DNA of 64,000 nucleotides, taken from positions 16,513-80,512 of the forward strand of contig DASTBI010000096.1 of assembly GCA_035712145.1 (NCBI GenBank). The letters are read 5' to 3'. Source of the stretch: Candidatus Eiseniibacteriota bacterium (GTDB lineage Bacteria; Eisenbacteria; RBG-16-71-46). Position numbers and translations under genes: made by a program. Positions 8,217-59,064 of the stretch are shown one piece after another. How positions within the stretch are numbered: position 1 is the stretch's first letter; each line of letters starts with the position of its first letter. The notes beneath the pieces are model-generated. The model was given only the letters and a program-made list of their open reading frames with translations, did no database searches and was not told the DNA's origin.

Positions 8217-8228
8217 GCGCGTTCCTCT

Positions 8229-45645: not shown

Positions 45646-45764
45646 CGAGGTTGCTCCTCGGCCCGCCAGGATTGCAAGGTATCCGATGGTCGGGCCGCTG
45701 CACGCGCCGCGGTTGCGGTATGCTGCTCTCCACGCTCCTCGTAGGACGCACTGTGGAGACTGCG

Positions 45765-46248: not shown

Positions 46249-47052
46249 ATGAGCTCCACCTGGCCCCAGTTCGTGGGCGGCGTTCCCGCGCACTACGACC
46301 GCTATCTGGTGCCGGTGATCTTCGACCCCTACGCCGTCGATCTCGCCGAGCGTCTTACCCGGGTGAGCGGAGGCGAGGTGCTCGAGATCGCGTGCGGGAC
46401 CGGCGTCGTGACCCAGCGGCTGCGCCAGGTCCTGCCGCGCGAGACCGCGCTGACGGCCACCGATCTCCATGAGGAGATGGTGGAGGAGGCCCGGCGGCGC
46501 AATCCCGGCCCGGGAGTGACGTGGAAGGTCGCCGATGGAACGGCGCTGCCGTTCGAGGACAACCGCTTCGACTCGGTCGTCTGCCAGTTCGGCGTGATGT
46601 TCTTTCCCGACAAGCTCGCCGGAATGCGCGAGGCGCGGCGCGTGCTGCGCTCGAGCGGCCGCTACGTCTTCAACGTCTGGGACAGTCATGCCGTGAACCC
46701 TTTCGGCCGGATCGCGTACGACACCATCACCACGTTGCTGCCCGCGGGCCAGCCACCCTTCTACGACAAGCCGTTCAGCTTCTGCGACGAGCCGGCCATC
46801 CGCTCCCTGTTGCGCGACGCCGGCTTCCGCTCCAGCGCGATCGAGCGGGTTCCGATGCGGACGTCCAGTCCGTCGGCGCGCGAGTTCGCCACCGGTCTCG
46901 TGCGGGGGAACCCCGTGATCCTCACGATCCAGGAGTGCGGTCTCAGCGACGACGAGGTCATCTCTGCGATCGAGCGCGAGCTGATCCGCGAAGGCGGCGA
47001 CCTGCCCTATCGCTCGACGAGCCAGGCCCTGGTGGTGACGGCCAAGGTCTAG
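46249..47052 (+). CDS. Class I SAM-dependent methyltransferase
   Basis: VLEIACGTGVVT is motif I. Confidence 0.75.
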   Translation: MSSTWPQFVGGVPAHYDRYLVPVIFDPYAVDLAERLTRVSGGEVLEIACGTGVVTQRLRQVLPRETALTATDLHEEMVEEARRRNPGPGVTWKVADGTALPFEDNRFDSVVCQFGVMFFPDKLAGMREARRVLRSSGRYVFNVWDSHAVNPFGRIAYDTITTLLPAGQPPFYDKPFSFCDEPAIRSLLRDAGFRSSAIERVPMRTSSPSAREFATGLVRGNPVILTIQECGLSDDEVISAIERELIREGGDLPYRSTSQALVVTAKV

Positions 47053-47053
47053 C

Positions 47054-47782
47054 TCAGGGCTCGGCGGACCCCGTCTCGCCTCCCTCGGCCACGGCTTTCA
47101 GACGCGCCAGCGACGGGATCGTGAAGCTCGACTCGCGGGTGATCACGAGCTCTTCCCGGCCCCAGCGAGACAGCGTCCGGATCGCGGACTCGACCGTGGT
47201 CGAGACCAGCTCCGCCACTTCCTGGCGAGTGAGCTGGATCGGGATCTCCACCCCTTCGCCGGCCGGGCGACCCATCCGCGCAGCCAGCGTCAGGAAAAGG
47301 CGCGCGATCCGCATCTCGACTCTCTGGCCGCGCATGTCGCCGAGCTTGCGCGTGAGCGCGATCGAAAGACGCGTGAGCTCGCGCATGACGGCGCGCGCGA
47401 ACTCCGGATGCTTGTCGAGCAGATGGAAGTATTCGGTGCGCGGGATGCGGATCAACGTCACGGCTTCGATCGCAATCGCGCTCGCGGGATAGGGGATGCC
47501 GTCGTACACCGCGATCGCTCCGACCGGCTCACCCACATCGAAGATCTCGAGGATCACGTCGCCGCCGGCGCCGTGGCGCACGATCTTCACCCGCCCCTTC
47601 ACGATGAGGGTGAAAGCATCGGCCGAGTCCCCCGCGCTCCAGATCGTCTCGCCGCGGGCGTAGTCGCGCAGCGACGCGATGGCTTTCAGCCGCGCCAACT
47701 CGGCGGGTGACAGGCCGCGAAACATCGGAGTCGAGCGGAGCGCCACGCTCAGCCGCTCTTCCCGGATTTCGGATCGAGCCAA
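47054..47782 (-). CDS. Crp/Fnr family transcriptional regulator
   Basis: It has a cNMP-binding-like beta-roll and a C-terminal HTH (RQEVAELVSTTVESAIRTLSRW). It is divergent from the nos operon. Confidence 0.8.
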   Translation of the reverse strand: MARSEIREERLSVALRSTPMFRGLSPAELARLKAIASLRDYARGETIWSAGDSADAFTLIVKGRVKIVRHGAGGDVILEIFDVGEPVGAIAVYDGIPYPASAIAIEAVTLIRIPRTEYFHLLDKHPEFARAVMRELTRLSIALTRKLGDMRGQRVEMRIARLFLTLAARMGRPAGEGVEIPIQLTRQEVAELVSTTVESAIRTLSRWGREELVITRESSFTIPSLARLKAVAEGGETGSAEP

Positions 47783-47881
47783 CGTCGCACCTCACGGGTG
47801 GGTCTCGCGGTCAGGATGGCGGGCTGTCCGCGGGCGCGCAAGTCCCATGAAGCTTGCGACTTGGCGGGAATCGGCCGCGGA

Positions 47882-47897
47882 TATGACGCCGGTCATA
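47882..47897. promoter_or_regulatory. Putative Dnr/NnrR/FNR-type box, TATGAC-N4-GTCATA
   Basis: A perfect-arm palindrome lies 36 bp upstream of the hemerythrin ATG, in the crp-nos divergent intergenic region. Confidence 0.4.
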
Positions 47898-47932
47898 CCG
47901 GGAAAGCGCCGTCGCGACGATCTTCCCGGCGT

Positions 47933-48469
47933 ATGGAGAGCGCACGGTCCAGAGCTCAGAGCCCGTTCGATCGGTTCCGCCGCGATCACCTCCGAGTGCT
48001 CACTCGACTGACCGCGATCGAGGAAGCGACCGGGCGCGGCCGCCCCGTCGACGAGACGCGGCTGCGACGCCACCTCGACGGTCTCGGCCGGCAGTTCGAC
48101 ACGCACATGGCCGCCGAGGAATCGGTCTTCTATCCCGTGCTCGCGCGCACACTGCCGGCGACGGAATCTTCGCTACGCCCGTTGAACGACGAGCACACCG
48201 ACCTGCGCGAGATGCTGGCCGCCCTGCGCGTCACGCTCGGGCGCCCACGAAGCCCTGAGCGCGACGTGCAGATCGGCATCCAGGCACGCGATCTCGTGGA
48301 CCTCCTGCGCGCGCACATCCGCAAGGAGGAAGTGGTCGTCTTCGATGTCTCGGAGCGAGTGCTCCGGCCCGGGGAGCTTCGGGGTCTCCACCGCAGGCTG
48401 AAGTCCTTCCTCCCCGCACGCGCCCGCCTCGCCGAGGCCGGGCGTGAGAAAGGCAAGCACGGGTCATGA
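47933..48469 (+). CDS. Hemerythrin-like (HHE cation-binding) domain protein
   Basis: His and Glu ligand patterns occur at FRRDHLRV, THMAAEESVFYP, NDEHTDLRE and LRAHIRKEE. The stop overlaps the cytochrome c start (ATGA). Confidence 0.7.
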   Translation: MESARSRAQSPFDRFRRDHLRVLTRLTAIEEATGRGRPVDETRLRRHLDGLGRQFDTHMAAEESVFYPVLARTLPATESSLRPLNDEHTDLREMLAALRVTLGRPRSPERDVQIGIQARDLVDLLRAHIRKEEVVVFDVSERVLRPGELRGLHRRLKSFLPARARLAEAGREKGKHGS

Positions 48470-48942
48470 ACGTCCTGGTTCGAGGTCTGCTCCTCGCGGC
48501 CCTCGCAGCCGCGATGGGTTGTGGTGGATCGAAGTCCGCCGACGAGGGGAAGGATGAGGCCCGCGCCTCGACCGGCGGCTCCGGGGCTTCAGCCTCGGCG
48601 TCGAAGTTCGACCAGGGGCCCCGCGCCGGTGAATCGGCTGCGAACGAAGAGCTCGCCGAGCGGGGAGAGAAGCTCTTCCAGGAGAAGGGCTGCTCCGCCT
48701 GCCACGCCTTCGGCAAGCGCAGCGCCGGACCCGATCTCGCCGGCGTGTCGATGCGCCGCACCGCGCGATGGATGGAAAACCAGATCCTTCACCCCGACGT
48801 GATGGTGAAGGAGGACCCGATCTCGCGCGCCATGTTCGGAGAGTTCGCGCTCCAGATGCCGAACCAGGGGCTCACGCCCGAAGAAGCCAAGGCTGTCATC
48901 GAGTACTTCAAGCACCAGGACCAGGAAGCGGACGAGGACTGA
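48466..48942 (+). CDS. Monoheme class I c-type cytochrome, lipoprotein (clade-II nos 'cy-c')
   Basis: The lipobox AAMGCGG, a CSACH heme motif and a downstream Met are present. Confidence 0.8.
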   Translation: MNVLVRGLLLAALAAAMGCGGSKSADEGKDEARASTGGSGASASASKFDQGPRAGESAANEELAERGEKLFQEKGCSACHAFGKRSAGPDLAGVSMRRTARWMENQILHPDVMVKEDPISRAMFGEFALQMPNQGLTPEEAKAVIEYFKHQDQEADED

Positions 48943-48964
48943 CCGCGTAAAGGAGGCGTACGTC

Positions 48965-50866
48965 ATGAAACGCTGGATCGTCACAACTGTGACCGCACTC
49001 GTGCTGGCCGCGGTCGCCCTGTCGCTCGGCTGCGCCGGCTCCGGATCCGCGCGCAAGGGCTCCGCCGCCGAGAAGGTCTACGTGAAGCCGGGTGAGCACG
49101 ACGCGTACTACGCGTTCCTCTCCGGCGGGCATCACGGGAACATCTACGTCTACGGCTTCCCTTCGTCGCGGCACATCACGACCATTCCCGTCTTCACGCC
49201 CGAGCCCGCGGTGGGCTATGGCTACGACGAGGACAGCAAGGCCATGCTGGGCGGACGCACCTGGGGCGACGCGCACCATCCCGGCCTCTCGGAGACCGAC
49301 GGCAACTACGATGGGCGCTGGCTGTTCATCAACGACATGGTCGGGGCACGGATCGCGCGCATCGATCTCAAGGACTTCAAGACCCGCCAGATCTTCGGTC
49401 CGATCCCCAACCTGTCGGCGGCGCACGCCTGTCCCTTCCCCACGCCGAACACCGAATACGTGTTCGCGGCGTCGCGATTCTCCGTGCCGGTTCCGAATCG
49501 CGCCACGCGCATCGAGGACTACGGCAAGGACTTCAACGGCATCATCGCCGGCATCAAGGTGGCGCCTGACGACGGCACCATGTCGCTCGGCTTCGAGATC
49601 CTGACCCCGCCTTTCGACTGGGACCTGGCGGACGCAGGCAAGGGTCCGAGCCACGGCTGGGAGTTCTTCACCTGCTACAACAGCGAGCTGGCCTTCGATT
49701 CGCTGGAGGTGAAGGCGTCGCAGAACGAGATGGACTTCATCGCGGCCGTCGACTGGCGCGCCGCGCAGAAGGCGGTCGACGAGGGCAAGGCCAAGACGAT
49801 CGGCGGCGCCCCGGTGCTGCATCCGCAAGAAGTGAGGGGCATCATCTATCTGATCCCGGTGCCGAAGAGCCCGCACGGCGTGGACGTGAACCCGACCGGG
49901 GAGTACATCTGCGCGAGCGGCAAGCTGCAGGCCGAGGTCAGCGTCTTCAGCTTCGCGAAGTTCCAGGCCGCCATCCAGGCCGAGAAGTTCGACGGCGACC
50001 GCGGCGGCATCCCGGTGCTCAAGTACGAGGACGTGCTCGAGGCCAAGGTCCCGGTGGGCCTGGGCCCGCTGCACACGCAGTTCGACGACAAGGGCTTCGC
50101 CTACACTTCGCTGTTCCTCGACTCCCAGATCGCCAAGTGGAAGGTCGGCCCGCCGTGGAACGTCGACGACAAGATCGACGTCTACTACTCGATCGGGCAC
50201 CTCATGGCGTCGGAAGGCGACACCAAGAACCCGACCGGTGAATACGTCATCGCGCTCGACAAGCTCTCGAAGAGCCGCTACCTCTCGGTCGGACCCACTC
50301 ATCCCGAGGCGGCCCAGCTCATCGACATCCGCGGTCCGAAGATGGAGCTCCTGTACGACTTCCCGACCTATCTCGAGCCCCACTACGCGCAGATGATCCG
50401 CGCCGAGAAGCTCAAGCCCATCACCGTCTACCCGATCGCCGAGAACAAGAACAAGGACGCCATCAAGACCGCCGAGGAAGCTCGGATCGTGCGCAAGGGG
50501 AACCGGGTCGACGTCTACGCTCTGGCGGTGCGGACGCACTTCACGCCCGACAAGGTCAAGGTCAACCAGGGGGACGACGTCTACTTCCACGTCACCAACC
50601 TGGAGCAGGACGACGATATCGCCCACGGGTTCGCGGTGCTGTGGTCCAACGGCAACATGCAGATCGAGCCGGGTGAGACCAAGACCATGCACTGGAAGGC
50701 CGAGCAGGTGGGGATCACGCCGTTCTACTGCTCGAACTTCTGCAGCGCGCTGCATCAGGAGATGCAGGGCCTGATCGAGGTCCAGCCGCGCGGCGCGAAG
50801 GTGGCGGCGGTCCAGCGACCGGATCCGCGCCAGGTGAGCGAGATCGCGGCGCTCCTCCAGCGATAA
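48965..50866 (+). CDS. nosZ: Nitrous-oxide reductase NosZ, clade II (Sec lipoprotein signal)
   Basis: The CuA motif is FYCSNFCSALHQEM. The N-terminal beta-propeller has conserved His (DAHHPG, SAAHACPF). The lipobox LSLGCAG and an AAAGGAGG RBS are present. Confidence 0.9.
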   Translation: MKRWIVTTVTALVLAAVALSLGCAGSGSARKGSAAEKVYVKPGEHDAYYAFLSGGHHGNIYVYGFPSSRHITTIPVFTPEPAVGYGYDEDSKAMLGGRTWGDAHHPGLSETDGNYDGRWLFINDMVGARIARIDLKDFKTRQIFGPIPNLSAAHACPFPTPNTEYVFAASRFSVPVPNRATRIEDYGKDFNGIIAGIKVAPDDGTMSLGFEILTPPFDWDLADAGKGPSHGWEFFTCYNSELAFDSLEVKASQNEMDFIAAVDWRAAQKAVDEGKAKTIGGAPVLHPQEVRGIIYLIPVPKSPHGVDVNPTGEYICASGKLQAEVSVFSFAKFQAAIQAEKFDGDRGGIPVLKYEDVLEAKVPVGLGPLHTQFDDKGFAYTSLFLDSQIAKWKVGPPWNVDDKIDVYYSIGHLMASEGDTKNPTGEYVIALDKLSKSRYLSVGPTHPEAAQLIDIRGPKMELLYDFPTYLEPHYAQMIRAEKLKPITVYPIAENKNKDAIKTAEEARIVRKGNRVDVYALAVRTHFTPDKVKVNQGDDVYFHVTNLEQDDDIAHGFAVLWSNGNMQIEPGETKTMHWKAEQVGITPFYCSNFCSALHQEMQGLIEVQPRGAKVAAVQRPDPRQVSEIAALLQR

Positions 50867-50875
50867 CGGACGGCA

Positions 50876-51502
50876 ATGAACAACTTCTGGAGTGAGCCTT
50901 TCCAGGCCGGGCACCGGCGGCTGATCTTCATCGTGGCCGTGGTGCTGATCCCGGTGTTCTTCATCCCGGTGCTGCCGATCTGGACGATGAGGCTGTGGGC
51001 CCCTCAGTATCCTGAGGGGCTCCGCCTCGTCATCTTCGCGAACACGATCAAGGGCGATCTCGACAAGATCAACATCCTGAACCACTACGTCGGAATGCAC
51101 GCGATCACCGCGAACGACTTCAAGGAGTTCGGCTACATGCCGCTGGCGCTCACGTTGTTCGGGGTCATGGCGCTGATGGCGGCGATCGCGAACCGCCGTG
51201 ACGTCGCGCTGATCGGATGGGCGGCGTTCACGCTCTTCGCGGTCGTGATGTTCAAGGACTACGCCAACTGGCTCTATCACTACGGACACGACCTGGATCC
51301 CCGGGCCGCCATCAAGCTCGATACCTTCACGCCGCCGCTGATCGGCTACAAGAAGATGGCGAACTTCCGCGTTTGGAGCCTGCCCGATCTGGGAGGGATC
51401 CTGCTCGGGATCGCCTGGCTGATGGGTCCGTTGGTCGCGCTGCTGGACGTGCTCGGGCGCCGGAAGCGCCTAGCCGCGGGCCGCTCCACGGTGGCTGCCT
51501 GA
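50876..51502 (+). CDS. NosB-like polytopic membrane protein of clade-II nos clusters
   Basis: The 208-aa product has 4 to 5 TM helices and sits immediately after nosZ, before nosD. This matches the described nosB position. Confidence 0.55.
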   Translation: MNNFWSEPFQAGHRRLIFIVAVVLIPVFFIPVLPIWTMRLWAPQYPEGLRLVIFANTIKGDLDKINILNHYVGMHAITANDFKEFGYMPLALTLFGVMALMAAIANRRDVALIGWAAFTLFAVVMFKDYANWLYHYGHDLDPRAAIKLDTFTPPLIGYKKMANFRVWSLPDLGGILLGIAWLMGPLVALLDVLGRRKRLAAGRSTVAA

Positions 51503-51515
51503 GGCGGGCGAAGTC

Positions 51516-52886
51516 ATGAGCGCGGCACGTCGGGTGCTGCTGGCCCTTGGGTTGACGCCGCTCCTCGCGGCCGGCGCCGCGCAAGCGCGCGTGCTCTTGC
51601 CGCCGGAAGGCTCGATCGCGGTCGCGCTCCAGCAGGCGCGCCCGGGAGACACCCTGGTCGTGCCCAAAGGCGTCCATCGCGAGCGCATCCGCATCCAGGT
51701 CCCGCTCACGCTCCGCGGCGAGCCCGGAGCGGTGCTGGATGGCGGAAGCGAGGGCTCGGTGCTCACGGTCGAGGCCTCGGGCGCGACGATCGAGGATCTC
51801 GAGATTCGAGGCAGCGGCAACCGTGTCATCACGGTGGACAGCGGCGTGCGCGTGCTCGGAGCGTCCGGGGTCCGGCTCCGCCGCTTGATCCTCACCCAAG
51901 TGCTCTACGGCATCTCGGCCGAGCGCTCGGACCAGATCTCGATCGAGGATTGCCGGCTCGCGGGCCGCGTGCCCCCGCGTGAGGAGCGCGGCGACGGCAA
52001 CGGGCTCCACCTCTGGTACTGCCGCGACGCCGTGCTTCGCGGCAACGAGCTGTCCCGGTTCCTCGACGGCATCTACCTGTCGTTCGTGGATCGCGCGCAG
52101 GTCGAGAACAATCGGCTGAGCGACCACGGGCGGTACGGGCTCCACACGATGTACTGCCACAACACACGGCTCGTCGACAACGATTTCACTCGCAATGTCG
52201 CCGGCATCGCCATCATGTTCTCCAACGGTCTTCACGTGGAGCGCAATCGCATGGTCCGGAACCGGGGGCCTCGCACGTACGGCCTGCTGCTACGCGACTG
52301 CAACGGCGGCCGCTTCGAGGCCAACCATCTCGTCGACAACACGGTCGCGATCTTCATGGACAACTCGAATCGCAATCATGTGACCGGCAACCGGCTCTCG
52401 GACAACGGCTGGGGCGTGATCCTGTTCGCGTCGTGCGCCGGCAACGAATTCGCCGGCAACGACTTCATCGACAACGACTATCCGCTGGCGCTCGACATGC
52501 GGCGCACCGACAACCGGTTCGACGACGGGCGGCGAGGCAACTACTGGAGCGGGAGCGCTCCGTACGATCTCGACGCCGACGGCGTCAGCGATGCGCCTCA
52601 CTCGCCGGTGAGCGCATTCGCGTTCGTGTCCAAGCAATATCCTGATCTTTCGATCCTGGCTCGCAGCCCCGCGGTCGTCGCCTTGTCGGTCGCCGAGCGG
52701 GTGTTTCCGTCGCTCCAGCCGAGCGAGGCGGTGGACCGTTTTCCCAGCGTGCGCCCCACGGTGGCGAGCCCATCCGAAGCCGGAGAGCGCCGCGGCGCCC
52801 GCCGCAGCTGGACCGCGGCCTTGGCCTTCTCTCTGTTGCTCGGGATGGGGCTCGCCGGCTTCACCCGGCGCCGGGAGGTCCCGTGA
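51516..52886 (+). CDS. nosD: NosD, periplasmic right-handed beta-helix (CASH) copper-cluster assembly protein
   Basis: Repeated beta-helix rungs (NxxxxN / GIxL patterns) are present, such as NRLSDNGWGVILFASCAGNEFAGNDFIDN. A signal peptide is present. Confidence 0.85.
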   Translation: MSAARRVLLALGLTPLLAAGAAQARVLLPPEGSIAVALQQARPGDTLVVPKGVHRERIRIQVPLTLRGEPGAVLDGGSEGSVLTVEASGATIEDLEIRGSGNRVITVDSGVRVLGASGVRLRRLILTQVLYGISAERSDQISIEDCRLAGRVPPREERGDGNGLHLWYCRDAVLRGNELSRFLDGIYLSFVDRAQVENNRLSDHGRYGLHTMYCHNTRLVDNDFTRNVAGIAIMFSNGLHVERNRMVRNRGPRTYGLLLRDCNGGRFEANHLVDNTVAIFMDNSNRNHVTGNRLSDNGWGVILFASCAGNEFAGNDFIDNDYPLALDMRRTDNRFDDGRRGNYWSGSAPYDLDADGVSDAPHSPVSAFAFVSKQYPDLSILARSPAVVALSVAERVFPSLQPSEAVDRFPSVRPTVASPSEAGERRGARRSWTAALAFSLLLGMGLAGFTRRREVP

Positions 52887-53656
52887 TCCACGCCGCGGGT
52901 CTGGTCAAGCGCTACGGCGCGGTGGTCGCGGTCGACCATCTGTCATTCGACGTGAACGCGGGGGAGACGTTCGCGCTCGTCGGACCCAATGGCGCCGGGA
53001 AGACCACGACGCTCCGCCTGCTCCTCGGTCTCTCGCTTCCCGACCAGGGGACGATCACCATCGGCGCCCGGCGTCTTCCGCCCAACCACCCCGAGGCTCG
53101 CGCCGCGCTCGGTTACGTGCCGCAGAAGGTCGAGTTCCCCCGCGGCCGCACGGTGACCGAGGTGCTGCGGTTCTTCGCCCGTCTGCGCGGACTCGATGCG
53201 CGCGCGGTGGACCGAGCTCTCGAGCGGGTGGGCCTTTCCGAATTCGCGTCGCGCCGGGCGACCGAGCTCTCCGGTGGATACACGCAGCGGCTCTCGCTCG
53301 GCCAGGCGCTGCTGGCCGATCCTTCCCTGCTCGTTCTCGACGAGCCCACGGCCAGCCTCGATCCGGAAGCGACCTGGGAGTTTCGATCGCTGGTCGAGCA
53401 GCTGAGAGCCGAGGGCAAGACGATCCTCCTGTGCTCCCACCTGCTGTCCGAAGTGGAGCGCGTCGCCGACCGCGTGCTGATCCTGGTGGAAGGCCGTGAG
53501 GCCGCGCTCGAGCGGATGGACGAGCTGCGCACGCGCCAGGAAGCCGCGGCGCGGCGCGCCCTCGAAGGCCACGCCCGCAACGACGGAGCGATGTCCCTCC
53601 CCACGCTCGAGGAGGTCTTCCTCTCGGTGGTGCGCAAGGAGAGGGCCGATGCGTGA
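52883..53656 (+). CDS. nosF: NosF ABC transporter ATP-binding protein
   Basis: Walker A GPNGAGKTTT, signature LSGGYTQRLSLGQAL, and Walker B LLVLDEP are present. The GTG start overlaps the nosD stop. Confidence 0.85.
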   Translation: MIHAAGLVKRYGAVVAVDHLSFDVNAGETFALVGPNGAGKTTTLRLLLGLSLPDQGTITIGARRLPPNHPEARAALGYVPQKVEFPRGRTVTEVLRFFARLRGLDARAVDRALERVGLSEFASRRATELSGGYTQRLSLGQALLADPSLLVLDEPTASLDPEATWEFRSLVEQLRAEGKTILLCSHLLSEVERVADRVLILVEGREAALERMDELRTRQEAAARRALEGHARNDGAMSLPTLEEVFLSVVRKERADA

Positions 53657-54059
53657 CGTGGCGCGTGTCGCATGGAACGCGCTCATGCTCGCGGCGCTGG
53701 CTTCGTGCGCCGCTCGCGGGCCCAAGCCGATCGCGGTCGGCGCCGAATGCGCCGCTTGCGGCATGTCGATCGGCGATCTTCGCTTCGCCTGCGAGAGACA
53801 AGCCGGCGGCTGGTCCCAGTACGACTCGATCGAGTGCCTGCTCGACGACAAGAAGCCGGGCCCGATCTGGCTCGCCGACTACGACACGCAGACGCTCGCC
53901 CCGGCCGAGTCCTTGTGGGTGGTGAAGGGTGACTTTCCCTCACCGATGGGCGGCGGCCTCGCCGCTTTCCGCTCCCGCGCGGCCGCCGATCGAGTCGCCT
54001 CGGAGACGGGCGGCCGGGTGTCGCGACTCCCCGATGTGAAGCGGGAACCGGCGCCATGA
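53649..54059 (+). CDS. nosL: NosL copper-binding lipoprotein
   Basis: The lipobox LASCAA is present, and ECAACGMSI matches the NosL CxxCGM motif. Confidence 0.7.
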   Translation: MRDVARVAWNALMLAALASCAARGPKPIAVGAECAACGMSIGDLRFACERQAGGWSQYDSIECLLDDKKPGPIWLADYDTQTLAPAESLWVVKGDFPSPMGGGLAAFRSRAAADRVASETGGRVSRLPDVKREPAP

Positions 54060-54463
54060 AGCGCTATCTCACGCTGTTCGCCATCAGCCTGGCGATCGCG
54101 GTGGCGCTGGCGATCGTGGCCAGGAGGCCGCGGAGCCGTCCGGCCGCGCCCGTGGCGCTGGCGGTTCCCGAGGCGGCGCTCGAGCTGGCGATCGAGCACG
54201 GCGCCATGGTGCCGAGCCGCGCGGCGGTGCCCAAGGAGCACCGGGTGCGGCTCGCGGTCGAGAACCGCGACGACGAGACGGCGACGCTCTCGCTCGCCGG
54301 CTACGAGGACCGGCTCGCGCCCCGCGCGATCGCGCCGGGTGCGCGCTGGGACACCACGTTCGTCGCCGACCGGCCGGGCGAAGGCTTCGCCTGGCTCGTG
54401 GACGGCAAGCTCGCCGGCCAGTTGACGGTTTCGGGGTCTCACCTGGTGGAAGGACACCGGTAA
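54056..54463 (+). CDS. Uncharacterised 135-aa membrane-anchored periplasmic protein inside the nos operon
   Basis: It has an N-terminal TM anchor and ATGA overlaps with both nosL (upstream) and nosY (downstream). I recognised no known motif. Confidence 0.45.
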   Translation: MKRYLTLFAISLAIAVALAIVARRPRSRPAAPVALAVPEAALELAIEHGAMVPSRAAVPKEHRVRLAVENRDDETATLSLAGYEDRLAPRAIAPGARWDTTFVADRPGEGFAWLVDGKLAGQLTVSGSHLVEGHR

Positions 54464-55299
54464 TGCGTGGCGTCGACATGCGCCGCGTGCGGGTGATCGC
54501 AGGCGACGAGTTCCGGCAGGCGCTCGAGAGCCGCTGGCTGTTCGGCTTCACGGCCGTGCTCGCGGGCCTCGTGCTCGGGCTCTCCTTCTTCGGCCTGGCG
54601 CAGAGCCGCGAAGTCGGCTTCCAGGGCTTCGCGCGGGTCACGCTGAGCCTGATGAACCTGGTGCTCTTCATCGTCCCGCTCACCGGTCTCGTGCTCGGCG
54701 TCACCAGCACCTCGAGTGCTCACGGCGCGCTGTCGCTGCTGCTCGCGCAGCCGGTGAGCCGGACCGAGGTGCTGCTCGGCAAGTTCCTCGGTCTCGCGGC
54801 CGCGCTCACGGTGGCGCAGGCGGTGGGATTCGGCGCCGGCGGTCTCGTGGTCGCCTTCTACGCCGGATCCGAGCAATCGCTCGGATTCCTCGTGCTCACC
54901 GGCCTGTCCATGGCGCTCGGCTGGCTGACGGTTTCCACGGCGCTCTTCATCGCCGTGCTCTGGCCGGACCGGCTCAAGGCCATGTCCGCCGCACTGTTGC
55001 TATGGCTCCTCATGGTGGTGGCGTACGACCTCGTCGTGCTCGGGGCCACGACGCTGCTCCAGGGCGTGCCGCTCCAGAGCGTGCTGTTTCCGGCTCTGCT
55101 GCTCAATCCCGTCGACCTGGCCCGGGTGCTCACCATGCTGGCGATCGGATCGGGAGCCCTGTTCGGGCCGACCTCGGCGGTTCTCATGAAGAGCTTCGGC
55201 AGCACGGGCGGCATTGCGCTCGGGCTGCTGGTGCTCACGCTCGAGAGCGTGATCCCGCTCGTGATCGCGGCTCAGGTGTTCCGAAGAAGGGATGGGTAG
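54463..55299 (+). CDS. nosY: NosY ABC-2 type permease
   Basis: It has six TM segments and follows nosF/nosL. Its stop overlaps the nnrS start. Confidence 0.75.
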   Translation: MRGVDMRRVRVIAGDEFRQALESRWLFGFTAVLAGLVLGLSFFGLAQSREVGFQGFARVTLSLMNLVLFIVPLTGLVLGVTSTSSAHGALSLLLAQPVSRTEVLLGKFLGLAAALTVAQAVGFGAGGLVVAFYAGSEQSLGFLVLTGLSMALGWLTVSTALFIAVLWPDRLKAMSAALLLWLLMVVAYDLVVLGATTLLQGVPLQSVLFPALLLNPVDLARVLTMLAIGSGALFGPTSAVLMKSFGSTGGIALGLLVLTLESVIPLVIAAQVFRRRDG

Positions 55300-56449
55300 A
55301 GCGCCTCAGCCGTACCAGGTCCTCTTTCCGATCGGAGTCGTGTTCGCTCTGATCGGCCTCGGCGCATGGCCCGCGCACGTCTTCGGGCTCTTGCCTTATC
55401 CGGGCGCGCTGCACCGGAGCCTGATGATCCAGGGCTTCGAGACCAGCTTCATCCTCGGCTTCCTCCTCACCGCGATGCCGGCCTTCACGCACGGGCCCCG
55501 CTGCCATCCGCTCGAGCTGGCATGGGGCGTGTTCTCGATGGTGGGCTTCGGCGTCGCCGCCTTCTTCGCCGACGAGACCGCGGCGCAAGAGTTCTTCCTC
55601 TTCGCTCTCACGCTGCCACTCTTCGCCGGTGGCCGGCGCGTCCTCGGGAATCCGCAGAAGCCGCCGGAAGAGTTCGCCTTCGTCGCGTTCGGACTGGCGC
55701 TCGGGCTCCTGGGCGGCGCGCTGCGGCTCGCCGAGTCGCTGGGCGTCGTGTTTTCGCTGCCGGCGCGCTTGCCGGAGCGCCTGCTCTCGCTCGGCATGGT
55801 CCTGTCTCTGGTGGTGGGCGTGGGAAGCCTCCTCGTCCCCACCTTTGCGGGAATGCGCGATCCACTGGTGATTCCCGGTGTGGCGAAGGCCCACGAGCGC
55901 GCCGGGCGCCGTGCGTTGTACGCGGTGATGATGGCGGTGCTCGCGCTGGCCTTCGTCCTGGAGAGCGCCCATCGGCCGACCCTCGGCATGGCCATGCGGG
56001 CCACGGCAGTCACCGTGATGGTGACCTGGGTGTGGAAGCTCTACCGGCTGCCGCGACGGGATGCCGCCGGATTCGTGCTTTGGGGCGCGGGGTGGTTCCT
56101 GCCGCTGGGGCTCCTGGGCGCGACGCTCGATCCGCTGCACGCCGTCGCCCTGCTCCACTTCACCTACATGGGAGGCTTCGCGCTGCTCACGATCGGGATC
56201 GGGACACGCGTCATCGTCTCGCACGGAGGACACGCGCTCGAGCTCGAGCGCCGCGTGCTCGATGTGCGGTGGCTGAGTCTGTTCCTCATCGCGCTGGCGC
56301 TTCGCGTCATCGCCGATTTCGCCACGGCGCACGTGGCCAGGGCATGGGCCGCGAGCGCGGTGCTGCTGATCGCCGCCTGCGGATGGTGGGCCTGGAGAGT
56401 CCTCTCGCTGCGATCGCAGCGACGCGAGGTCGGGCCGAAGACGGTCTAG
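55292..56449 (+). CDS. nnrS: NnrS family heme-copper membrane protein (NO-stress associated)
   Basis: The ~385-aa product has 12 TM segments with conserved His (HRSLMIQGFETSFILGFL, HGP..H) and sits in the denitrification context. Confidence 0.65.
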   Translation: MGRAPQPYQVLFPIGVVFALIGLGAWPAHVFGLLPYPGALHRSLMIQGFETSFILGFLLTAMPAFTHGPRCHPLELAWGVFSMVGFGVAAFFADETAAQEFFLFALTLPLFAGGRRVLGNPQKPPEEFAFVAFGLALGLLGGALRLAESLGVVFSLPARLPERLLSLGMVLSLVVGVGSLLVPTFAGMRDPLVIPGVAKAHERAGRRALYAVMMAVLALAFVLESAHRPTLGMAMRATAVTVMVTWVWKLYRLPRRDAAGFVLWGAGWFLPLGLLGATLDPLHAVALLHFTYMGGFALLTIGIGTRVIVSHGGHALELERRVLDVRWLSLFLIALALRVIADFATAHVARAWAASAVLLIAACGWWAWRVLSLRSQRREVGPKTV

Positions 56450-59064
56450 CGGATCTTCACCACCCTCGAGCTTCTGCTCTCGCCGCCGCTCACGGCCCGC
56501 ACGAAGTAGATCCCCGGGCTCGCGTCGCGACCTTCGCTCGAGCGGCCTTCCCAGGTGAGCACGCGCGTGCCGGCCTCGGCCCGGCCTTCGAAGACGCGGG
56601 CCACGTGCCGCCCCTGCAGGTCGAGCACGTCGACCACCGCGTGCCCCGCGTTCGACATCTCGAGCACGAAGCTCACCCGGCCGGAAGCGGGGTTTGGCCA
56701 CGGCGAGCGGAGCCCCAGCCGAGCCGGAAGCTCACCGGGGAATGGCGCAGCGCCGAGCGCCTGCTGGGTCGCGTCGTAGAGCGTGAGATCGTCGATGGCC
56801 GCTTCCACGACCGAATACGCGCTCTTCTCGGAGGCCACGAAGCGCACCTTGACCTGCGCGGTGGGCGCCACGTGATCGGCGATGCGGACCGCGCCTTCCT
56901 GCCAGTGGGCGTGCATGCCGGTGATGCGCTTCGCCAGCGTCCAGCTGCCGCCGTTGTTGCCGCTCATCAGCACGTCGAGGTAGTCGCCGGCATCGTTGGT
57001 GTTGGTGAAGAACCAGAACCAGAAGCCGATCGTGGGCATGGCCATGCCGGTCGCGTCCAACGCCGGGCTGGTCAGCGTCGTGAGGCCGTCGAGATCGTGA
57101 CCTTCGATGTCGGTGGACAGCGTGCCCTGGCCGGTCACGAAGCAGCGCGTGCCATTGGGCGTGCGATCGTTCTCCGGCTGCACCGGGCCGGGATACAGGC
57201 CCTCCGCCTCGCGATGTCCCTCGTGCGCCAGCGGGACCCCGGGACGCGTGAACGCGCCGGTCACGGGAGGCGACGTCATCGACACGGGCCCCTGATCCGC
57301 GACCTGGGTGCCGAGCGGATCGACCCACTGCCATTGCCCCGAGATGTTGTCGTTCGCGTCGTCTCCCGGCGCTCCCACCGTCCAGCCGGCCGACGATTCG
57401 ATCGGATTCCAGAGCGCGACGGGCGGCAGCGTGAATGACAGATCCGTCGGTCCCGGGCCGATCGTGCGCACGAAGCGGAGCGGGATGTACCCGGGAGCGG
57501 TGACGTTGACGCCATACGGGCCGACCGGGACGTCGCTCAGCTCGAAGTGCCCGCTGGCATCGGTGTGCGTGTGCAGGTTCGTGTCGTCGAGCGAGATCCC
57601 CGCCTCCTCCAGCGGGCCTTGTCCCCCCTGCACCATGCCGGTGAAGTCGGCCCTGGCGAGCGGCGCCAGCGTCACGGTCACGGTCTCGCGCACGGCGATG
57701 ACGGCGTTGCGCGTGATCTGCGCGTTCGCGTACCCGAAGCGCTTGGCGGTGATGGTGTGCGAGCCCGGGTCGAGCGCGAACACCGCGACTCCAAAGGCGG
57801 TGGTGGTGAGCGACTCCTGCGCGGCGCCGCGATAGAGCGTTGCGCCCGCGATCGGCTGCCCGTTGCTCGAGTCCACCACTTTGACCCGCAGCAGGCCGTA
57901 GTCGCGGCGCGGGCGATACACCCAGAGTCCGGTCTGCATGTCGCTCGCGATCACGGTGCCGGAAGGAAAGTACGGGCACACCGCCCATACGCCGTCGTAG
58001 TTGCCCGAGGGACCGGCGTAGGAATCCGCGAAGCCGAACTCCGCCGGATGACCGGGATCGCTGGCGTCGAGCACGCGGATCCCCTCGGTGTAGTTCGACA
58101 CGTAGATCTCGTCGTCCTTCACGTGGACGTTGTGGACGATGGCCGCGGGATTGGAGGTGTAGCGGTTGAAGAGAACCGGGGCCGAGAGGTTGGAGATGTC
58201 GAAGATCTTGAGCGGCTCGCCGTTCTTCTCGTCGGTGATGTAGAGCCAGTTGCCGGTCTTGTCGGGCCAGGAGTTGTGGGTGAAGCCGCCGGGATAGTGC
58301 CAGGCCGCGATCTGGACGGGTGCTCCGGGATTCGTGAAGTCGAAGATGCGGTGGATCCCGTAGTAGATCGACGAGGCGTAGAGGCGGTTGCCGATCGGCA
58401 CGCTGTCGTGCACGTACACCGAATCGTCGTTGCTCGGACCGATCGGTGTGCTGGGCCAGGTCGCGAGCGGCGCGGGCGCTTCGGGACTGGCGAGCGAGAG
58501 GATCCGCATGCCCGAAGAGGGATAGGCGCCCAGCCCGGCGTTGTAGCGGGTGCCGTTGCAGACCAGGATCGCGCGCGTGGTATCCACCGACACGGTGTGG
58601 GACCGGGCGAAGCCGGTCGCATACGTCGACGCGAGCACCGGATGCTCGGGATCGGTCATGCGGATGATCTGGATGCCCTCGCCGGCCCCGAAGCCCTCGG
58701 TGACCACGTACATCCAGCTCCGGTACTGCTTCATCTCCCGCCATTTCGAGGCCGGACCGGGGATGAAGCCCACCTGGTAAGCGGCCGCTGGGTCGGTCAC
58801 GTTGTAGAAAGCGGTTCCCGTACCGGTGCCGATCACGGCGTATTCCCTGCCGTCGTGGTGTATGTAGGACCAGCACGACGAGTAGTTCCAGTTCCCGGGA
58901 GACGGGTTGGCCGGAGGGTAGTTGTCGAAGTGCGCCTTGAGCTCGAAGTTACGCAGGGTCAAGGCTCGGCCCGGGACCGGAGCGAGCAAGGCGGCCAGGG
59001 CCGCGGCGCAGGTCAGGATACGGAGATGGGCGGCGCCTGGTGGTGACTTGATCCCAGGGGTCAT
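56446..59064 (-). CDS. Large secreted cell-surface protein with carboxypeptidase-regulatory-like domains and an FlgD-Ig/T9SS-type C-terminal sorting domain
   Basis: It has a signal peptide and CarbopepD_reg-like segments (LLRVKVVDSSNGQPIAGATLY; GHFELSDVPVGPYGVNVTAPGY). The C-terminus is WPNPASGRVSFVLE...GIYFVRAVSGG...VVKIR. Confidence 0.7.
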   Translation of the reverse strand: MTPGIKSPPGAAHLRILTCAAALAALLAPVPGRALTLRNFELKAHFDNYPPANPSPGNWNYSSCWSYIHHDGREYAVIGTGTGTAFYNVTDPAAAYQVGFIPGPASKWREMKQYRSWMYVVTEGFGAGEGIQIIRMTDPEHPVLASTYATGFARSHTVSVDTTRAILVCNGTRYNAGLGAYPSSGMRILSLASPEAPAPLATWPSTPIGPSNDDSVYVHDSVPIGNRLYASSIYYGIHRIFDFTNPGAPVQIAAWHYPGGFTHNSWPDKTGNWLYITDEKNGEPLKIFDISNLSAPVLFNRYTSNPAAIVHNVHVKDDEIYVSNYTEGIRVLDASDPGHPAEFGFADSYAGPSGNYDGVWAVCPYFPSGTVIASDMQTGLWVYRPRRDYGLLRVKVVDSSNGQPIAGATLYRGAAQESLTTTAFGVAVFALDPGSHTITAKRFGYANAQITRNAVIAVRETVTVTLAPLARADFTGMVQGGQGPLEEAGISLDDTNLHTHTDASGHFELSDVPVGPYGVNVTAPGYIPLRFVRTIGPGPTDLSFTLPPVALWNPIESSAGWTVGAPGDDANDNISGQWQWVDPLGTQVADQGPVSMTSPPVTGAFTRPGVPLAHEGHREAEGLYPGPVQPENDRTPNGTRCFVTGQGTLSTDIEGHDLDGLTTLTSPALDATGMAMPTIGFWFWFFTNTNDAGDYLDVLMSGNNGGSWTLAKRITGMHAHWQEGAVRIADHVAPTAQVKVRFVASEKSAYSVVEAAIDDLTLYDATQQALGAAPFPGELPARLGLRSPWPNPASGRVSFVLEMSNAGHAVVDVLDLQGRHVARVFEGRAEAGTRVLTWEGRSSEGRDASPGIYFVRAVSGGESRSSRVVKIR

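What the first reader, a model, noticed from the sequence alone, without database searches (positions are those of the whole stretch)
47054..56449. Complete clade-II (Sec-dependent) N2O-reductase cluster flanked by hemerythrin, NnrS and a divergent Crp/Fnr regulator
NosZ here has a lipoprotein Sec signal and the CuA motif FYCSNFCSALHQEM. It is preceded by a lipoprotein cytochrome c translationally coupled (ATGA) to a hemerythrin-like protein. It is followed by a NosB-like membrane protein, nosD, nosF, nosL, an unassigned ORF, nosY and an NnrS-family protein, with nearly every junction overlapping. Hemerythrin and NnrS are O2/NO-binding modules, so the operon appears to couple N2O reduction to gas sensing or protection. 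The nosGH or nosR quinol-oxidising modules are absent from the cluster.
Basis: partly seen in the sequence, partly recalled or inferred. Interest (0 to 1): 0.7.

Follow-up and report, generated by a model that had tools for sequence, protein, structure and literature searches.

The report
Eisenbacteria clade II nitrous-oxide reductase operon
This is a real, complete ten-gene operon for reducing the greenhouse gas N2O in an uncultured Eisenbacteria genome; it is largely ordinary for its kind but carries a conserved regulator binding site and a small, undescribed copper-protein-like gene that is fused to the copper chaperone NosL in other bacteria.

Summary
Window 47933-56449 (+) holds ten tightly packed genes with junction gaps of -8 to +22 bp. 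In order they are HHE hemerythrin, lipoprotein monoheme cytochrome c, Sec-type clade II NosZ (TIGR04246, 851 bits; all CuZ and CuA ligands present), NosB, NosD, NosF, NosL, a 135-aa ORF (orfX), NosY and NnrS. A Cys-free Crp/Fnr regulator (47054-47782) is transcribed divergently.

The window comes from a Candidatus Eisenbacteria genome. The same layout recurs in about 30 Eisenbacteria species-level MAGs. No nosR, nosX, nosGH, Rieske/cytochrome b, nir or nor gene lies anywhere in the 64 kb.

- A palindrome ATGAC-N4-GTCAT (47883-47896) is the only match in the window. All 24 strict matches in about 500 kb of related loci lie between crp and the hemerythrin gene, so it is the likely operator.
- orfX is a membrane-anchored cupredoxin fold that has lost the type 1 copper ligands. 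It is present in 18/18 Eisenbacteria clusters, more constant than nosL (12/18). In other lineages it is fused to the C-terminus of NosL in the same nosF-nosY slot.
- Hemerythrin (25/32) and NnrS (8/16) are variable accessories, so gas sensing or protection is plausible but untested.

Verdict: a known kind of system with a modestly new variant. Interest is moderate to low.

The parts
47054..47782 (-). Crp/Fnr-family transcription regulator, 242 aa, no cysteine, transcribed divergently from the operon
   Evidence: Pfam cNMP_binding 62.9 bits and HTH_Crp_2 48.1 bits. It scores far below the cutoff of every named NCBIfam equivalog, including CRP, FixK and Fnr. The sequence contains no Cys. An independent gene call of the same length exists. 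It is conserved upstream of the operon in 19 of 27 Eisenbacteria loci.
47883..47896 (.). Palindrome ATGACGCCGGTCAT (TGA-N6-TCA core), the putative operator of the Crp/Fnr regulator. Its centre lies 43.5 bp upstream of the hemerythrin ATG.
   Evidence: It is the only match to ATGAY-N4-RTCAT in the 64 kb window (0.11 expected). It is present in the crp-hr intergenic region of 21 of 21 related loci, often as two copies about 98 bp apart. All 24 strict matches in about 500 kb of Eisenbacteria loci lie in that intergenic region.
47933..48469 (+). Cytoplasmic hemerythrin-like (HHE) di-iron protein, 178 aa, first gene of the operon
   Evidence: PF01814 67.8 bits. The H / HxxxE / H / HxxxE ligand pattern is conserved in 25 orthologues. 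It has no signal peptide and no hydrophobic segment. It is 100% identical to an NCBI Eisenbacteria 'hemerythrin domain-containing protein'. Its nearest solved relative is the di-iron domain of YtfE, at only E = 0.004.
48466..48942 (+). Lipoprotein monoheme cytochrome c, 158 aa, the presumed electron donor to the CuA site of NosZ
   Evidence: PF00034 48.6 bits. It has the lipobox AMGC, the haem motif CSACH and a conserved LQMPNQGL methionine. Its start overlaps the hemerythrin stop (ATGA). It is present in 32 of 32 related loci.
48965..50866 (+). nosZ, clade II Sec-dependent nitrous-oxide reductase, 633 aa, lipoprotein-type signal, no C-terminal haem domain
   Evidence: TIGR04246 851.2 bits against a cutoff of 625. 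All CuZ histidines and CuA ligands are aligned. The N-terminus MKRW...LSLGC has no twin arginine. It is 80-85% identical to NosZ of Eisenbacteria MAGs.
50876..51502 (+). nosB, polytopic membrane protein, 208 aa, four hydrophobic segments
   Evidence: It is 30% identical over 151 aa (E = 6e-19) to the reference NosB part of Sulfurimonas denitrificans ABB45043.1. It carries the motifs NHYVGM and YGHD. A homologue lies directly after nosZ in 70 other loci.
51516..52886 (+). nosD, periplasmic beta-helix maturation protein, 456 aa
   Evidence: TIGR04247 366.1 bits against a cutoff of 300; Pfam NosD 137 bits.
52883..53656 (+). nosF, ABC ATPase, 257 aa
   Evidence: ABC_tran 114 bits. Its position between nosD and nosL/nosY is conserved in all related loci. 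Its GTG start overlaps the nosD stop.
53649..54059 (+). nosL, lipoprotein copper chaperone, 136 aa
   Evidence: PF05573 35.8 bits against a cutoff of 24. It has the lipobox LASC, and CxxCxM and PMxxGxxAF are conserved in 28 orthologues. It overlaps nosF by 8 bp.
54056..54463 (+). orfX, a 135-aa N-terminal membrane helix (or signal peptide) followed by a degenerate cupredoxin domain that ends in GSHLVEGHR. It is the proposed partner of NosL.
   Evidence: The AlphaFold model has pLDDT 85.6, with a helix at residues 2-22 and a nine-strand sandwich. Foldseek matches FtrB, Cupredoxin_1, the EfeO domain, the NosZ CuA domain and CupA. It has no Cys, and the type 1 ligand loop is replaced. Invariant residues are G82, Y83, P107, G108, F111, W113, G127, H129 and H134. 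It is present in 18 of 18 Eisenbacteria clusters. It is fused C-terminally to NosL in at least eight Pfam-confirmed representative proteins, and sits in the same nosF-nosY slot in loci L082-L085.
54463..55299 (+). nosY, ABC-2 permease, 278 aa, six hydrophobic segments
   Evidence: PF12679 76.7 bits. Hydrophobic segments were counted. Its ATG overlaps the orfX stop by 1 bp.
55292..56449 (+). NnrS-family membrane protein, 385 aa, last gene of the operon
   Evidence: PF05940 104.1 bits, covering model positions 5-366 of 371. Its start overlaps the nosY end by 8 bp. It is present in 8 of 16 related loci that extend far enough, and in one of them (L004) it lies upstream of crp instead.

Best explanation
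Window 47054-56449 is the nitrous-oxide respiration locus of a Candidatus Eisenbacteria bacterium. It consists of one ten-gene operon plus a divergent regulator.

Shown:
- The operon encodes a complete copper enzyme system. NosZ is a Sec-exported, lipid-anchored clade II N2O reductase with all CuZ and CuA ligands.
- A small lipoprotein cytochrome c is encoded immediately upstream of nosZ.
- NosB, the clade II hallmark membrane protein, follows nosZ.
- The NosDFY ABC-type maturation machine and the NosL copper chaperone are present.

Inferred:
- Electrons pass from the quinone pool to the lipoprotein cytochrome c and then to CuA and CuZ. The entry step would be a quinol:cytochrome c oxidoreductase encoded elsewhere, because no nosGH, nosR or Rieske/cytochrome b genes lie in the 64 kb.
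- orfX is a membrane-tethered cupredoxin fold that has lost its type 1 copper site. It works with NosL and NosDFY in copper delivery or docking on the periplasmic side. It is found in every Eisenbacteria nos cluster and is physically fused to NosL in other lineages at the same gene position.
- The Cys-free Crp/Fnr regulator binds the conserved ATGAC-N4-GTCAT box in the 150-bp divergent promoter region and switches the operon on or off.
- The cytoplasmic HHE di-iron protein and NnrS are optional, co-expressed accessories. They most probably deal with O2 or NO, either buffering it or reporting it to the regulator. This would protect or time the synthesis of an enzyme known to be sensitive to both gases.
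For: Gene identities:
- HMM scores are above curated cutoffs for NosZ, NosD, NosL, NnrS, hemerythrin, cytochrome c and the Crp domains.
- NosB is confirmed by direct BLASTP to a literature reference and by its motifs.
- The metal ligands of NosZ align residue by residue with solved NosZ structures.

Operon structure:
- Junctions are -4, 22, 9, 13, -4, -8, -4, -1 and -8 bp. No credible internal terminator was found: one consensus match inside nosY, against 3.2 expected.
- Synteny is conserved across about 30 Eisenbacteria species representatives with 71-85% NosZ identity.

Operator:
- The box is unique in the window and is confined to the crp-hr intergenic region. There it accounts for 24 of 24 strict matches in about 500 kb of related DNA.
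- Its core fits the published Crp/Fnr consensus TTGA-N6-TCAA (PMC11539149).
- A similar box lies between Crp and HHE genes beside nos clusters of Acidobacteriota and Bacteroidota.

orfX:
- It has a confident cupredoxin model.
- It is present in 18 of 18 clusters, against 12 of 18 for nosL.
- NosL-orfX fusions are verified by Pfam and by context: nosF, then the fusion, then nosY.

Missing electron module:
- Pfam scans of all credible ORFs in the window found no such genes.
Against: - No expression, activity or binding data exist. The organism is uncultured.
- Hemerythrin (25/32) and NnrS (8/16) are dispensable in relatives, so their link to N2O reduction may be loose.
- orfX has no cysteine or methionine cluster typical of Cu(I) chaperones. 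Outside Eisenbacteria only one histidine (H129) of its C-terminal motif is conserved.
- orfX membrane topology is only weakly predicted from flank charges (+2.8 against +2.0).
- The regulator's effector is unknown. Its closest solved relatives are generic Crp proteins rather than Dnr or Fnr.
- The box-to-start-codon distance is not constant among relatives: about 43 bp in some and about 80 bp in others.
Confidence: 0.8

Rival explanations
1. The hemerythrin is the sensor half of a two-protein switch. It binds O2 or NO at its di-iron site and modulates the Cys-free Crp/Fnr regulator, much as DnrN/NorA-type di-iron proteins tune NO-responsive regulators. On this reading it does not protect the enzyme.
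For: The regulator has no cysteine, so it cannot be an Fe-S oxygen sensor. It also lacks the Arg of the cAMP pocket (sequence). HHE genes sit next to Crp homologues beside clade II nos clusters in six non-Eisenbacteria loci, with the same type of box between them. The hemerythrin is the first gene downstream of the operator. The NorA/DnrN precedent comes from my own knowledge and was not tested here.
Against: Seven of 32 Eisenbacteria clusters lack the hemerythrin. Whether those seven retain the regulator was not tabulated. There is no fusion or co-variation evidence for a physical contact. The regulator could bind haem or a small ligand on its own.
Confidence: 0.3
2. Hemerythrin and NnrS are general nitrosative or oxidative stress genes. 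They happen to be co-located and co-regulated with nos, and they have no specific role in N2O reduction.
For: Both are variably present (25/32 and 8/16). In L004, nnrS sits upstream of crp instead of after nosY. dnrN and nnrS occur on assorted nos scaffolds and elsewhere in denitrification regulons (PMC6264515).
Against: In the window both are translationally coupled to nos genes (ATGA and 8-bp overlaps). The hemerythrin carries the only operator of the operon.
Confidence: 0.25
3. The cluster is self-sufficient for electron input. NosB and/or NnrS, a haem- and copper-binding membrane protein, would act as the quinol-oxidising module that replaces NosGH, NosR or a bc complex.
For: No other electron-input gene lies in the 64 kb. 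[quoted passage not shown] NnrS is translationally coupled to nosY.
Against: NnrS is absent from half of the related clusters. NosB has no recognisable redox cofactor motif apart from conserved histidines. A bc1 or alternative complex III elsewhere in the genome is the simpler source.
Confidence: 0.12
4. orfX is a blue-copper electron carrier (a small cupredoxin) that shuttles electrons to NosZ.
For: It has a cupredoxin fold and a weak Pfam Cupredoxin_1 match of 22.4 bits.
Against: It has no cysteine at all. The C-x-x-H-x-x-M ligand loop seen in true relatives such as P0196 (ACHEPGHYEKGM) is replaced by WLVDGKLAG. It is fused to the chaperone NosL, not to redox proteins.
Confidence: 0.03

Closest known systems
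Clade II nos clusters of Bacteroidota, Ignavibacteria and Acidobacteriota (loci L038-L080)
   Same: They share a Sec-type NosZ (54-60% identical), nosB directly downstream, and then nosD, nosF, (nosL) and nosY in the same order. A c-type cytochrome gene lies upstream of nosZ. nosR and nosX are absent.
   Different: They have no standalone orfX. The upstream cytochrome ORFs are about 400 aa rather than 158 aa. Hemerythrin occurs only sporadically (10 of 44 loci), and no NnrS was detected.
Wolinella succinogenes and Campylobacterota clade II nos cluster (nosZ-B-D-G-C1-C2-H-F-Y-L; Hein et al. 2017, as cited in PMC11409646 and PMC9697520)
   Same: Both have a Sec-dependent NosZ, NosB, NosDFY and NosL. 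Crp/Fnr-family (Nss) regulators act through TTGA-N6-TCAA boxes.
   Different: The NosGH menaquinol dehydrogenase module and the NosC1/C2 cytochromes are absent here. NosB is not fused to a cytochrome (208 aa here against 432 aa). From my own knowledge, NosZ here lacks the C-terminal haem c domain of the Wolinella enzyme. A separate lipoprotein cytochrome c is encoded upstream instead.
NosL-cupredoxin-like fusion proteins, for example in Candidatus Kryptoniota (P0248, P0261, locus L082)
   Same: The C-terminal roughly 100 residues match the orfX profile, with GY, AD(R/K)PG..F and G-x-H conserved. The fusion occupies the same position between nosF and nosY in a clade II cluster.
   Different: There the domain forms one polypeptide with the NosL lipoprotein. 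Here it is a separate gene with its own N-terminal hydrophobic helix and an extended GSHLxEGH(R/Q) tail.
CupA of Streptococcus pneumoniae and FtrB / Cupredoxin_1 proteins (PDB 4f2e, 8vuk, 4hcf)
   Same: They share the cupredoxin fold without a classical blue-copper site. CupA is a solved Cu(I) chaperone. Its N-terminal membrane anchor is stated from my own knowledge and was not checked here. Foldseek E-values range from 6e-7 to 6e-5.
   Different: Sequence identity is only 12-21%. From my own knowledge, CupA binds Cu(I) through Cys and Met, which orfX lacks.
YtfE/RIC, DnrN and NorA di-iron (HHE) proteins of denitrifiers
   Same: They share a hemerythrin-like four-helix di-iron domain with the H/HxxxE ligand pattern. 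They are genetically associated with NO-responsive regulons.
   Different: The N-terminal ScdA_N domain is absent here. The score is far below the RIC family cutoff (22.6 against 204.7 bits), so this protein is not a member of that family.
NnrS of Rhodobacter sphaeroides and Vibrio cholerae
   Same: The protein gives a full-length PF05940 match and is multi-spanning, with eight hydrophobic segments detected by a simple hydropathy scan.
   Different: Here it is translationally coupled to nosY inside a nos operon rather than sitting in a nir/nor regulon. Haem and copper binding are untested.

Membership tests
Clade II (Sec-dependent) nitrous-oxide reductase NosZ | Score above the curated cutoff of the Sec-dependent NosZ model and higher than for the Tat-type model | tested here: met
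   TIGR04246 scores 851.2 bits against a cutoff of 625. TIGR04244 (Tat type) scores 449.3 and clade III L-NosZ scores 135.9.
Clade II (Sec-dependent) nitrous-oxide reductase NosZ | Seven CuZ histidines and the CuA ligands (His, Cys, Cys, His, Met) | tested here: met
   H104, H105, H154, H304, H370, H412 and H473, and H554, C589, C593, H597 and M600, align with P. stutzeri H129, H130, H178, H326, H382, H433 and H494, and with H583, C618, C622, H626 and M629.
Clade II (Sec-dependent) nitrous-oxide reductase NosZ | Sec rather than twin-arginine signal peptide | tested here: met
   The N-terminus MKRWIVTTVTALVLAAVALSLGC has no RR motif and ends in a lipobox. This was read from the sequence; no dedicated predictor was run.
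Clade II nos gene cluster | nosB immediately downstream of nosZ, and nosR and nosX absent | tested here: met
   nosB starts 9 bp after nosZ and matches the reference NosB at E = 6e-19. No NosR-type (FMN_bind/Fer4) or NosX (ApbE) domain was found in any ORF of the window.
Clade II nos gene cluster | Associated Fe-S or cytochrome b electron-input genes (NosGH, or Rieske/cytochrome b), which are frequent but not universal | tested here: not met
   Only a monoheme cytochrome c is present. No Fer4, Rieske or cytochrome b domain occurs in the 64 kb.
NosB | Polytopic membrane protein with the conserved stretches LNHYxGM and YGH(N/D) | tested here: met
   It has four hydrophobic segments and carries ILNHYVGM and HYGHD. 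The motif definition comes from PMC9697520. It is 30% identical over 151 aa to ABB45043.1.
NosDFY maturation ABC system | A NosD beta-helix protein, an ABC ATPase and an ABC-2 permease encoded together | tested here: met
   NosD scores 366 bits on TIGR04247. NosF scores 114 bits on ABC_tran and NosY 76.7 bits on ABC2_membrane_2. No NosF- or NosY-specific models exist in the libraries searched, so those two rest on domain type and position.
NosL copper chaperone | A lipoprotein with a NosL domain and conserved Cys/Met copper ligands | tested here: met
   PF05573 scores 35.8 bits against a cutoff of 24. The lipobox LASC is present, and CxxCxM is conserved in 28 orthologues. Copper binding itself is not testable here.
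Hemerythrin HHE cation-binding domain | A domain score above cutoff and the H / HxxxE / H / HxxxE di-iron ligands | tested here: met
   PF01814 scores 67.8 bits against a cutoff of 25.3. DH, HMAAEE, EH and HIRKEE are at least 90% conserved in 25 orthologues.
RIC / YtfE / ScdA iron-sulfur repair di-iron proteins | A full-length match including the N-terminal ScdA_N domain | tested here: not met
   TIGR03652 scores 22.6 bits against a cutoff of 204.7 and NF008221 scores 20.3 against 254. Only the di-iron domain aligns weakly to YtfE.
NnrS | A full-length NnrS domain in a multi-spanning membrane protein | tested here: met
   PF05940 scores 104.1 bits over residues 6-373 of 385. Eight or more hydrophobic segments were found. 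Haem and copper content is not testable here.
FNR-type oxygen sensor | An N-terminal cysteine cluster that ligates a [4Fe-4S] cluster | tested here: not met
   The regulator has no cysteine. The Fnr model NF008365 scores 37.6 bits against a cutoff of 228.
CRP (cAMP receptor) | An equivalog-level score and the Arg-Ser/Thr cAMP-phosphate contact | tested here: not met
   NF008732 scores 54.6 bits against a cutoff of 266. The corresponding stretch reads PYPASA, with no Arg (sequence; the residue's role is from my own knowledge).
Type 1 (blue) copper cupredoxin, considered for orfX | His, Cys, His and Met ligand set | tested here: not met
   orfX has no Cys, and the ligand loop is replaced. Pfam Cupredoxin_1 scores 22.4 bits, below its cutoff of 27. 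Only the fold is shared.

The most novel reading that the evidence does not exclude
orfX and the homologous C-terminal domain of NosL fusion proteins define a previously unrecognised accessory factor of clade II N2O reductase maturation. It would be a degenerate cupredoxin, structurally akin to the CuA domain of NosZ itself. It would work with the copper chaperone NosL, or replace it in the one third of Eisenbacteria clusters that lack nosL, to deliver copper or to dock the chaperone onto NosD or NosZ.
Probability: 0.35. Interest if true: 0.55.

Novelty: new variant of a known kind. Interest (0 to 1): 0.4.

Why it matters
Clade II NosZ organisms are regarded as the main biological sink for N2O in soils and sediments. 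Eisenbacteria are a widespread uncultured phylum whose N2O-reducing potential has so far only been listed in surveys.

The locus gives three concrete handles:
- It defines a minimal electron-module-free clade II operon for that phylum.
- It supplies a specific, testable operator sequence for its Cys-free Crp/Fnr regulator. This bears on how clade II nos genes are switched on, which is poorly understood.
- It identifies a candidate extra maturation factor (orfX, the NosL-fused domain). That factor could matter for heterologous production of active clade II NosZ and for interpreting nos clusters that appear to lack nosL.

None of this overturns current views. The core finding is a correctly recognised, ordinary nos cluster.

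Tried and rejected
- I looked for a second, crp-proximal copy of the box in the window, as seen in most relatives. None was found with up to 3 mismatches.
- I tested whether the box-to-ATG spacing is constant, which would suggest class II activation of a leaderless transcript. It is about 43 bp in 7 loci and about 75-92 bp in others, so no conclusion was drawn.
- Sigma-70 promoter and terminator consensus scans of 46900-57000 found nothing useful: 0 promoters, and 1 terminator-like site inside nosY against 3.2 expected.
- I searched the whole window for nosGH, nosR, Rieske/cytochrome b, nir and nor genes. None was found.
- The orfX profile found no orfX in 44 non-Eisenbacteria nos loci. It gave only weak hits to the NosZ CuA domain.
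- The Foldseek AFDB50 library was unavailable.
- Sanford et al. 2012 (PNAS) is not held, so gene orders for Gemmatimonas and Anaeromyxobacter could not be read directly. The comparison used 80 fetched loci instead.
- Two supplement searches for NosB references were unproductive before the sequences were found in part 1 of Text S1.
- Literature searches for hemerythrin in nos clusters and for a cupredoxin-NosL link returned nothing relevant.
- No tRNA, Rfam family or notable tandem repeat occurs in the window.

Full report
**Observation**

The window is high-GC (about 68%). On the + strand, 47933-56449 carries ten consecutive ORFs with high third-position GC. Their junctions are -4, +22, +9, +13, -4, -8, -4, -1 and -8 bp. 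A 242-aa gene lies on the opposite strand at 47054-47782.

- The regulator has Crp/Fnr domains.
- Hemerythrin HHE scores 67.8 bits.
- Cytochrome c with CSACH scores 48.6 bits.
- NosZ scores 851 bits on the Sec-dependent model TIGR04246 (cutoff 625) and 449 bits on the Tat-type model.
- NosD scores 366 bits on TIGR04247.
- NosF is an ABC ATPase, NosL scores 35.8 bits against a cutoff of 24, and NosY is an ABC-2 permease.
- NnrS scores 104 bits over its full length.

The ORF after nosZ has no library model. It aligns to the NosB part of the Sulfurimonas denitrificans reference protein (sequence taken from Text S1 of PMC11409646) at 30% identity over 151 residues, E = 6e-19. It keeps the two published NosB signatures, LNHYxGM and YGH(N/D) (PMC9697520). 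It has four hydrophobic segments.

The alignment to solved NosZ structures places all seven CuZ histidines and the CuA His/Cys/Cys/His/Met set. The quoted motif FYCSNFCSALHQEM is at residues 587-600.

NosZ, the cytochrome c and NosL all begin with lipoprotein-type signal sequences (LSLGC, AMGC, LASC). NosZ has no twin arginine.

- The hemerythrin precedes the cytochrome c.
- The hemerythrin's likely start is ATG 47933. This is the same 178-aa product as an NCBI protein and an independent assembly.
- nosL starts at 53649.

**Origin and conservation**

NosZ is 71-85% identical to NosZ of 30-odd Candidatus Eisenbacteria species-representative MAGs. It is 54-60% identical to NosZ of Bacteroidota, Ignavibacteria and Acidobacteriota. 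The hemerythrin is 100% identical to a protein of an NCBI Eisenbacteria MAG. The source is therefore a public, machine-annotated genome.

tblastn and profile searches of the window's proteins against the 80 fetched loci show one layout throughout the Eisenbacteria group: crp(-) | hr-cytc-nosZ-nosB-nosD-nosF-(nosL)-orfX-nosY-(nnrS). Counting only loci that extend far enough gives the following:

| Gene | Loci with the gene |
|---|---|
| cytochrome c | 32/32 |
| hemerythrin | 25/32 |
| regulator | 19/27 |
| orfX | 18/18 |
| nosL | 12/18 |
| nnrS | 8/16 |

In one locus (L004) nnrS lies upstream of crp instead of after nosY.

Other phyla keep nosZ-nosB-nosD-nosF-(nosL)-nosY but not the standalone orfX or nnrS.

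Pfam scans of all credible ORFs in the 64 kb found only housekeeping and unrelated genes: mnmG, mnmE, yidC, rnpA, a histidine kinase, queC, a transglycosylase, amidohydrolases, a cation antiporter, a CDF transporter, a methyltransferase, PhoX and ribonucleotide reductase. No nosR, nosX, nosGH, Rieske/cytochrome b, nir or nor gene is present. The statement that the quinol-oxidising modules are absent is correct for the cluster and for the whole window.

**Regulation**

The regulator has no cysteine, so it cannot be an FNR-type Fe-S oxygen sensor. It scores far below every named equivalog, and its closest solved relatives are generic Crp proteins.

The 150-bp divergent region contains a perfect palindrome, ATGACGCCGGTCAT, at 47883-47896. 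It is the only match to ATGAY-N4-RTCAT in the window, against 0.11 expected. The same box is present between crp and the hemerythrin gene in 21 of 21 related loci, usually as two copies about 98 bp apart. All 24 strict matches in about 500 kb of Eisenbacteria DNA lie in that region.

Its core, TGA-N6-TCA, fits the Crp/Fnr consensus TTGA-N6-TCAA used for clade II organisms (PMC11539149). I take it to be the operator. This is an inference from conservation and was not tested by binding.

The window has only the hemerythrin-proximal copy. The spacing to the start codon is not uniform among relatives, so I draw no conclusion about promoter class.

**Hemerythrin and NnrS**

The hemerythrin has no signal peptide or hydrophobic segment. 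It conserves the H / HxxxE / H / HxxxE ligands. It resembles only the di-iron domain of YtfE, and weakly (E = 0.004). It fails the RIC family cutoff by a wide margin.

HHE ORFs also occur within 10 kb of clade II nosZ in 10 of 44 non-Eisenbacteria loci. Six of these lie next to a Crp homologue. In four loci a TGAC-N4-(G/A)TCA box sits beside or between these genes, against a background of about 0.1 per kb. This suggests a recurring Crp-HHE module.

Whether the di-iron protein buffers O2 or NO, repairs damage, or reports to the regulator cannot be decided from sequence. I rank these as rivals.

NnrS is translationally coupled to nosY here but is absent from half of the relatives. Genes of this type (dnrN, nnrS) have already been noted on nos-carrying metagenomic scaffolds (PMC6264515). 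It concerns optional parts.

**The unassigned ORF (orfX, 54056-54463)**

This is the most informative extra gene. It has 132 close homologues, all about 135 aa, all unnamed and, where labelled, from Eisenbacteria. Invariant residues are G82, Y83, P107, G108, F111, W113, G127, H129, L130, G133 and H134. The C-terminal motif is GSHLxEGH(R/Q).

The AlphaFold model is confident (pLDDT 85.6). It shows an N-terminal helix and a nine-strand sandwich. Foldseek places the model among cupredoxins: FtrB, B. anthracis Cupredoxin_1, the EfeO cupredoxin domain, the CuA domain of NosZ, and the copper chaperone CupA.

The protein has no cysteine. Where true type 1 relatives carry the C-x-x-H-x-x-M loop (for example ACHEPGHYEKGM in P0196), it carries WLVDGKLAG. 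It is therefore not an electron-carrying blue-copper protein.

A profile search of 1.84 billion representatives found about 80 standalone relatives. It also found at least ten proteins of 184-261 aa in which this domain is C-terminal. Pfam detects an N-terminal NosL domain in eight of those ten. For three of them the genomic context was retrieved:
- L082-L084, with a 64%-identical NCBI protein named NosL from Candidatus Kryptoniota.
- L085.
- L081.

In L082-L085 the fusion occupies the slot between nosF and nosY of a clade II cluster, which is the same place as nosL plus orfX in the window. G-Y, AD(R/K)PG..F and G-x-H are conserved across standalone and fused forms.

Three lines of evidence argue that orfX acts with NosL/NosDFY in NosZ maturation: the gene fusion, the positional conservation, and presence in 18 of 18 clusters, including six without nosL.

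Caveats are the missing thiol or thioether ligands and the weakly predicted topology. Flank charges of +2.8 against +2.0 slightly favour an outward-facing domain. I found no paper describing this domain.

**Comparison with known systems**

The locus satisfies the defining features of a clade II nos cluster: a Sec-type NosZ, nosB directly downstream, and no nosR or nosX (PMC11096178; PMC11409646). It lacks the frequent Fe-S or cytochrome b electron genes.

It differs from the Wolinella type by the absence of NosGH and NosC1/C2 and by an unfused NosB. It differs from its nearest non-Eisenbacteria relatives by the small lipoprotein cytochrome c, orfX, and the more frequent hemerythrin and NnrS.

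**Verdict**

The finding is real and correctly identified. As a nos cluster it is a new member of a known kind in a phylum already listed as carrying nosZ.

The conserved operator, the Crp-HHE pairing and the NosL-associated degenerate cupredoxin make it a modest new variant. They yield testable hypotheses but no surprise for the field's main questions. Interest is 0.4.

Noticed in passing
window 56446-59064 (-): This is an 872-aa secreted protein with an LVIVD repeat, CarboxypepD_reg domains and a FlgD_ig/Por_Secre_tail C-terminal sorting domain. It converges on nnrS, and the two stop codons overlap by 4 bp. A second Por_Secre_tail protein lies at 26080-28962. This suggests type IX-like secretion cargo in this Eisenbacteria genome.
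   Followed up: no
window 1952-8875 (-): mnmG, mnmE, yidC and rnpA lie in a row. This is the gene set usually found next to the replication origin, but no dnaA was seen in the window.
   Followed up: no
window 51516-52886 (nosD), last ~30 codons: NosD ends in a hydrophobic stretch, AALAFSLLLGMGLAGF, flanked by arginines. This may be a C-terminal membrane anchor, which is not a feature I know from clade I NosD.
   Followed up: no
loci L004, L009, L013, L015, L027, L029: Six of 18 Eisenbacteria nos clusters have no nosL between nosF and orfX. The gap is too small for a gene, and there is no profile hit anywhere in the locus. All six keep orfX.
   Followed up: partly
L082 1-16771 (also L083, L084): This is a Kryptoniota-like clade II cluster at 43% GC. 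Its order is cytochrome b, multihaem cytochrome c, nosZ, nosB, a 134-aa ORF, nosD, nosF, the NosL-cupredoxin fusion and nosY. These are followed by two further NosL-domain genes, a thioredoxin-like gene and a TonB-dependent receptor, which may form an extended copper-acquisition set.
   Followed up: partly
loci L078 (2360), L055 (8369), L061 (8272), L041 (3142): A TGAC-N4-(G/A)TCA box like the Eisenbacteria one sits between or next to Crp-family and HHE genes beside clade II nos clusters of Acidobacteriota and Bacteroidota. This hints at a cross-phylum regulatory module.
   Followed up: partly
NosZ C-terminal domains in L038-L078: The orfX profile gives weak but repeated hits (19-27 bits) to the CuA cupredoxin domain of NosZ from other phyla. 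Foldseek also pairs the orfX model with NosZ CuA domains. orfX may therefore derive from, or mimic, that domain.
   Followed up: partly
window 14306-16336 (+), 40630-41472 (+), 45651-46244 (+): Three ORFs with coding-like GC3 (676, 280 and 197 aa) have no Pfam match at E <= 0.001-0.01.
   Followed up: no
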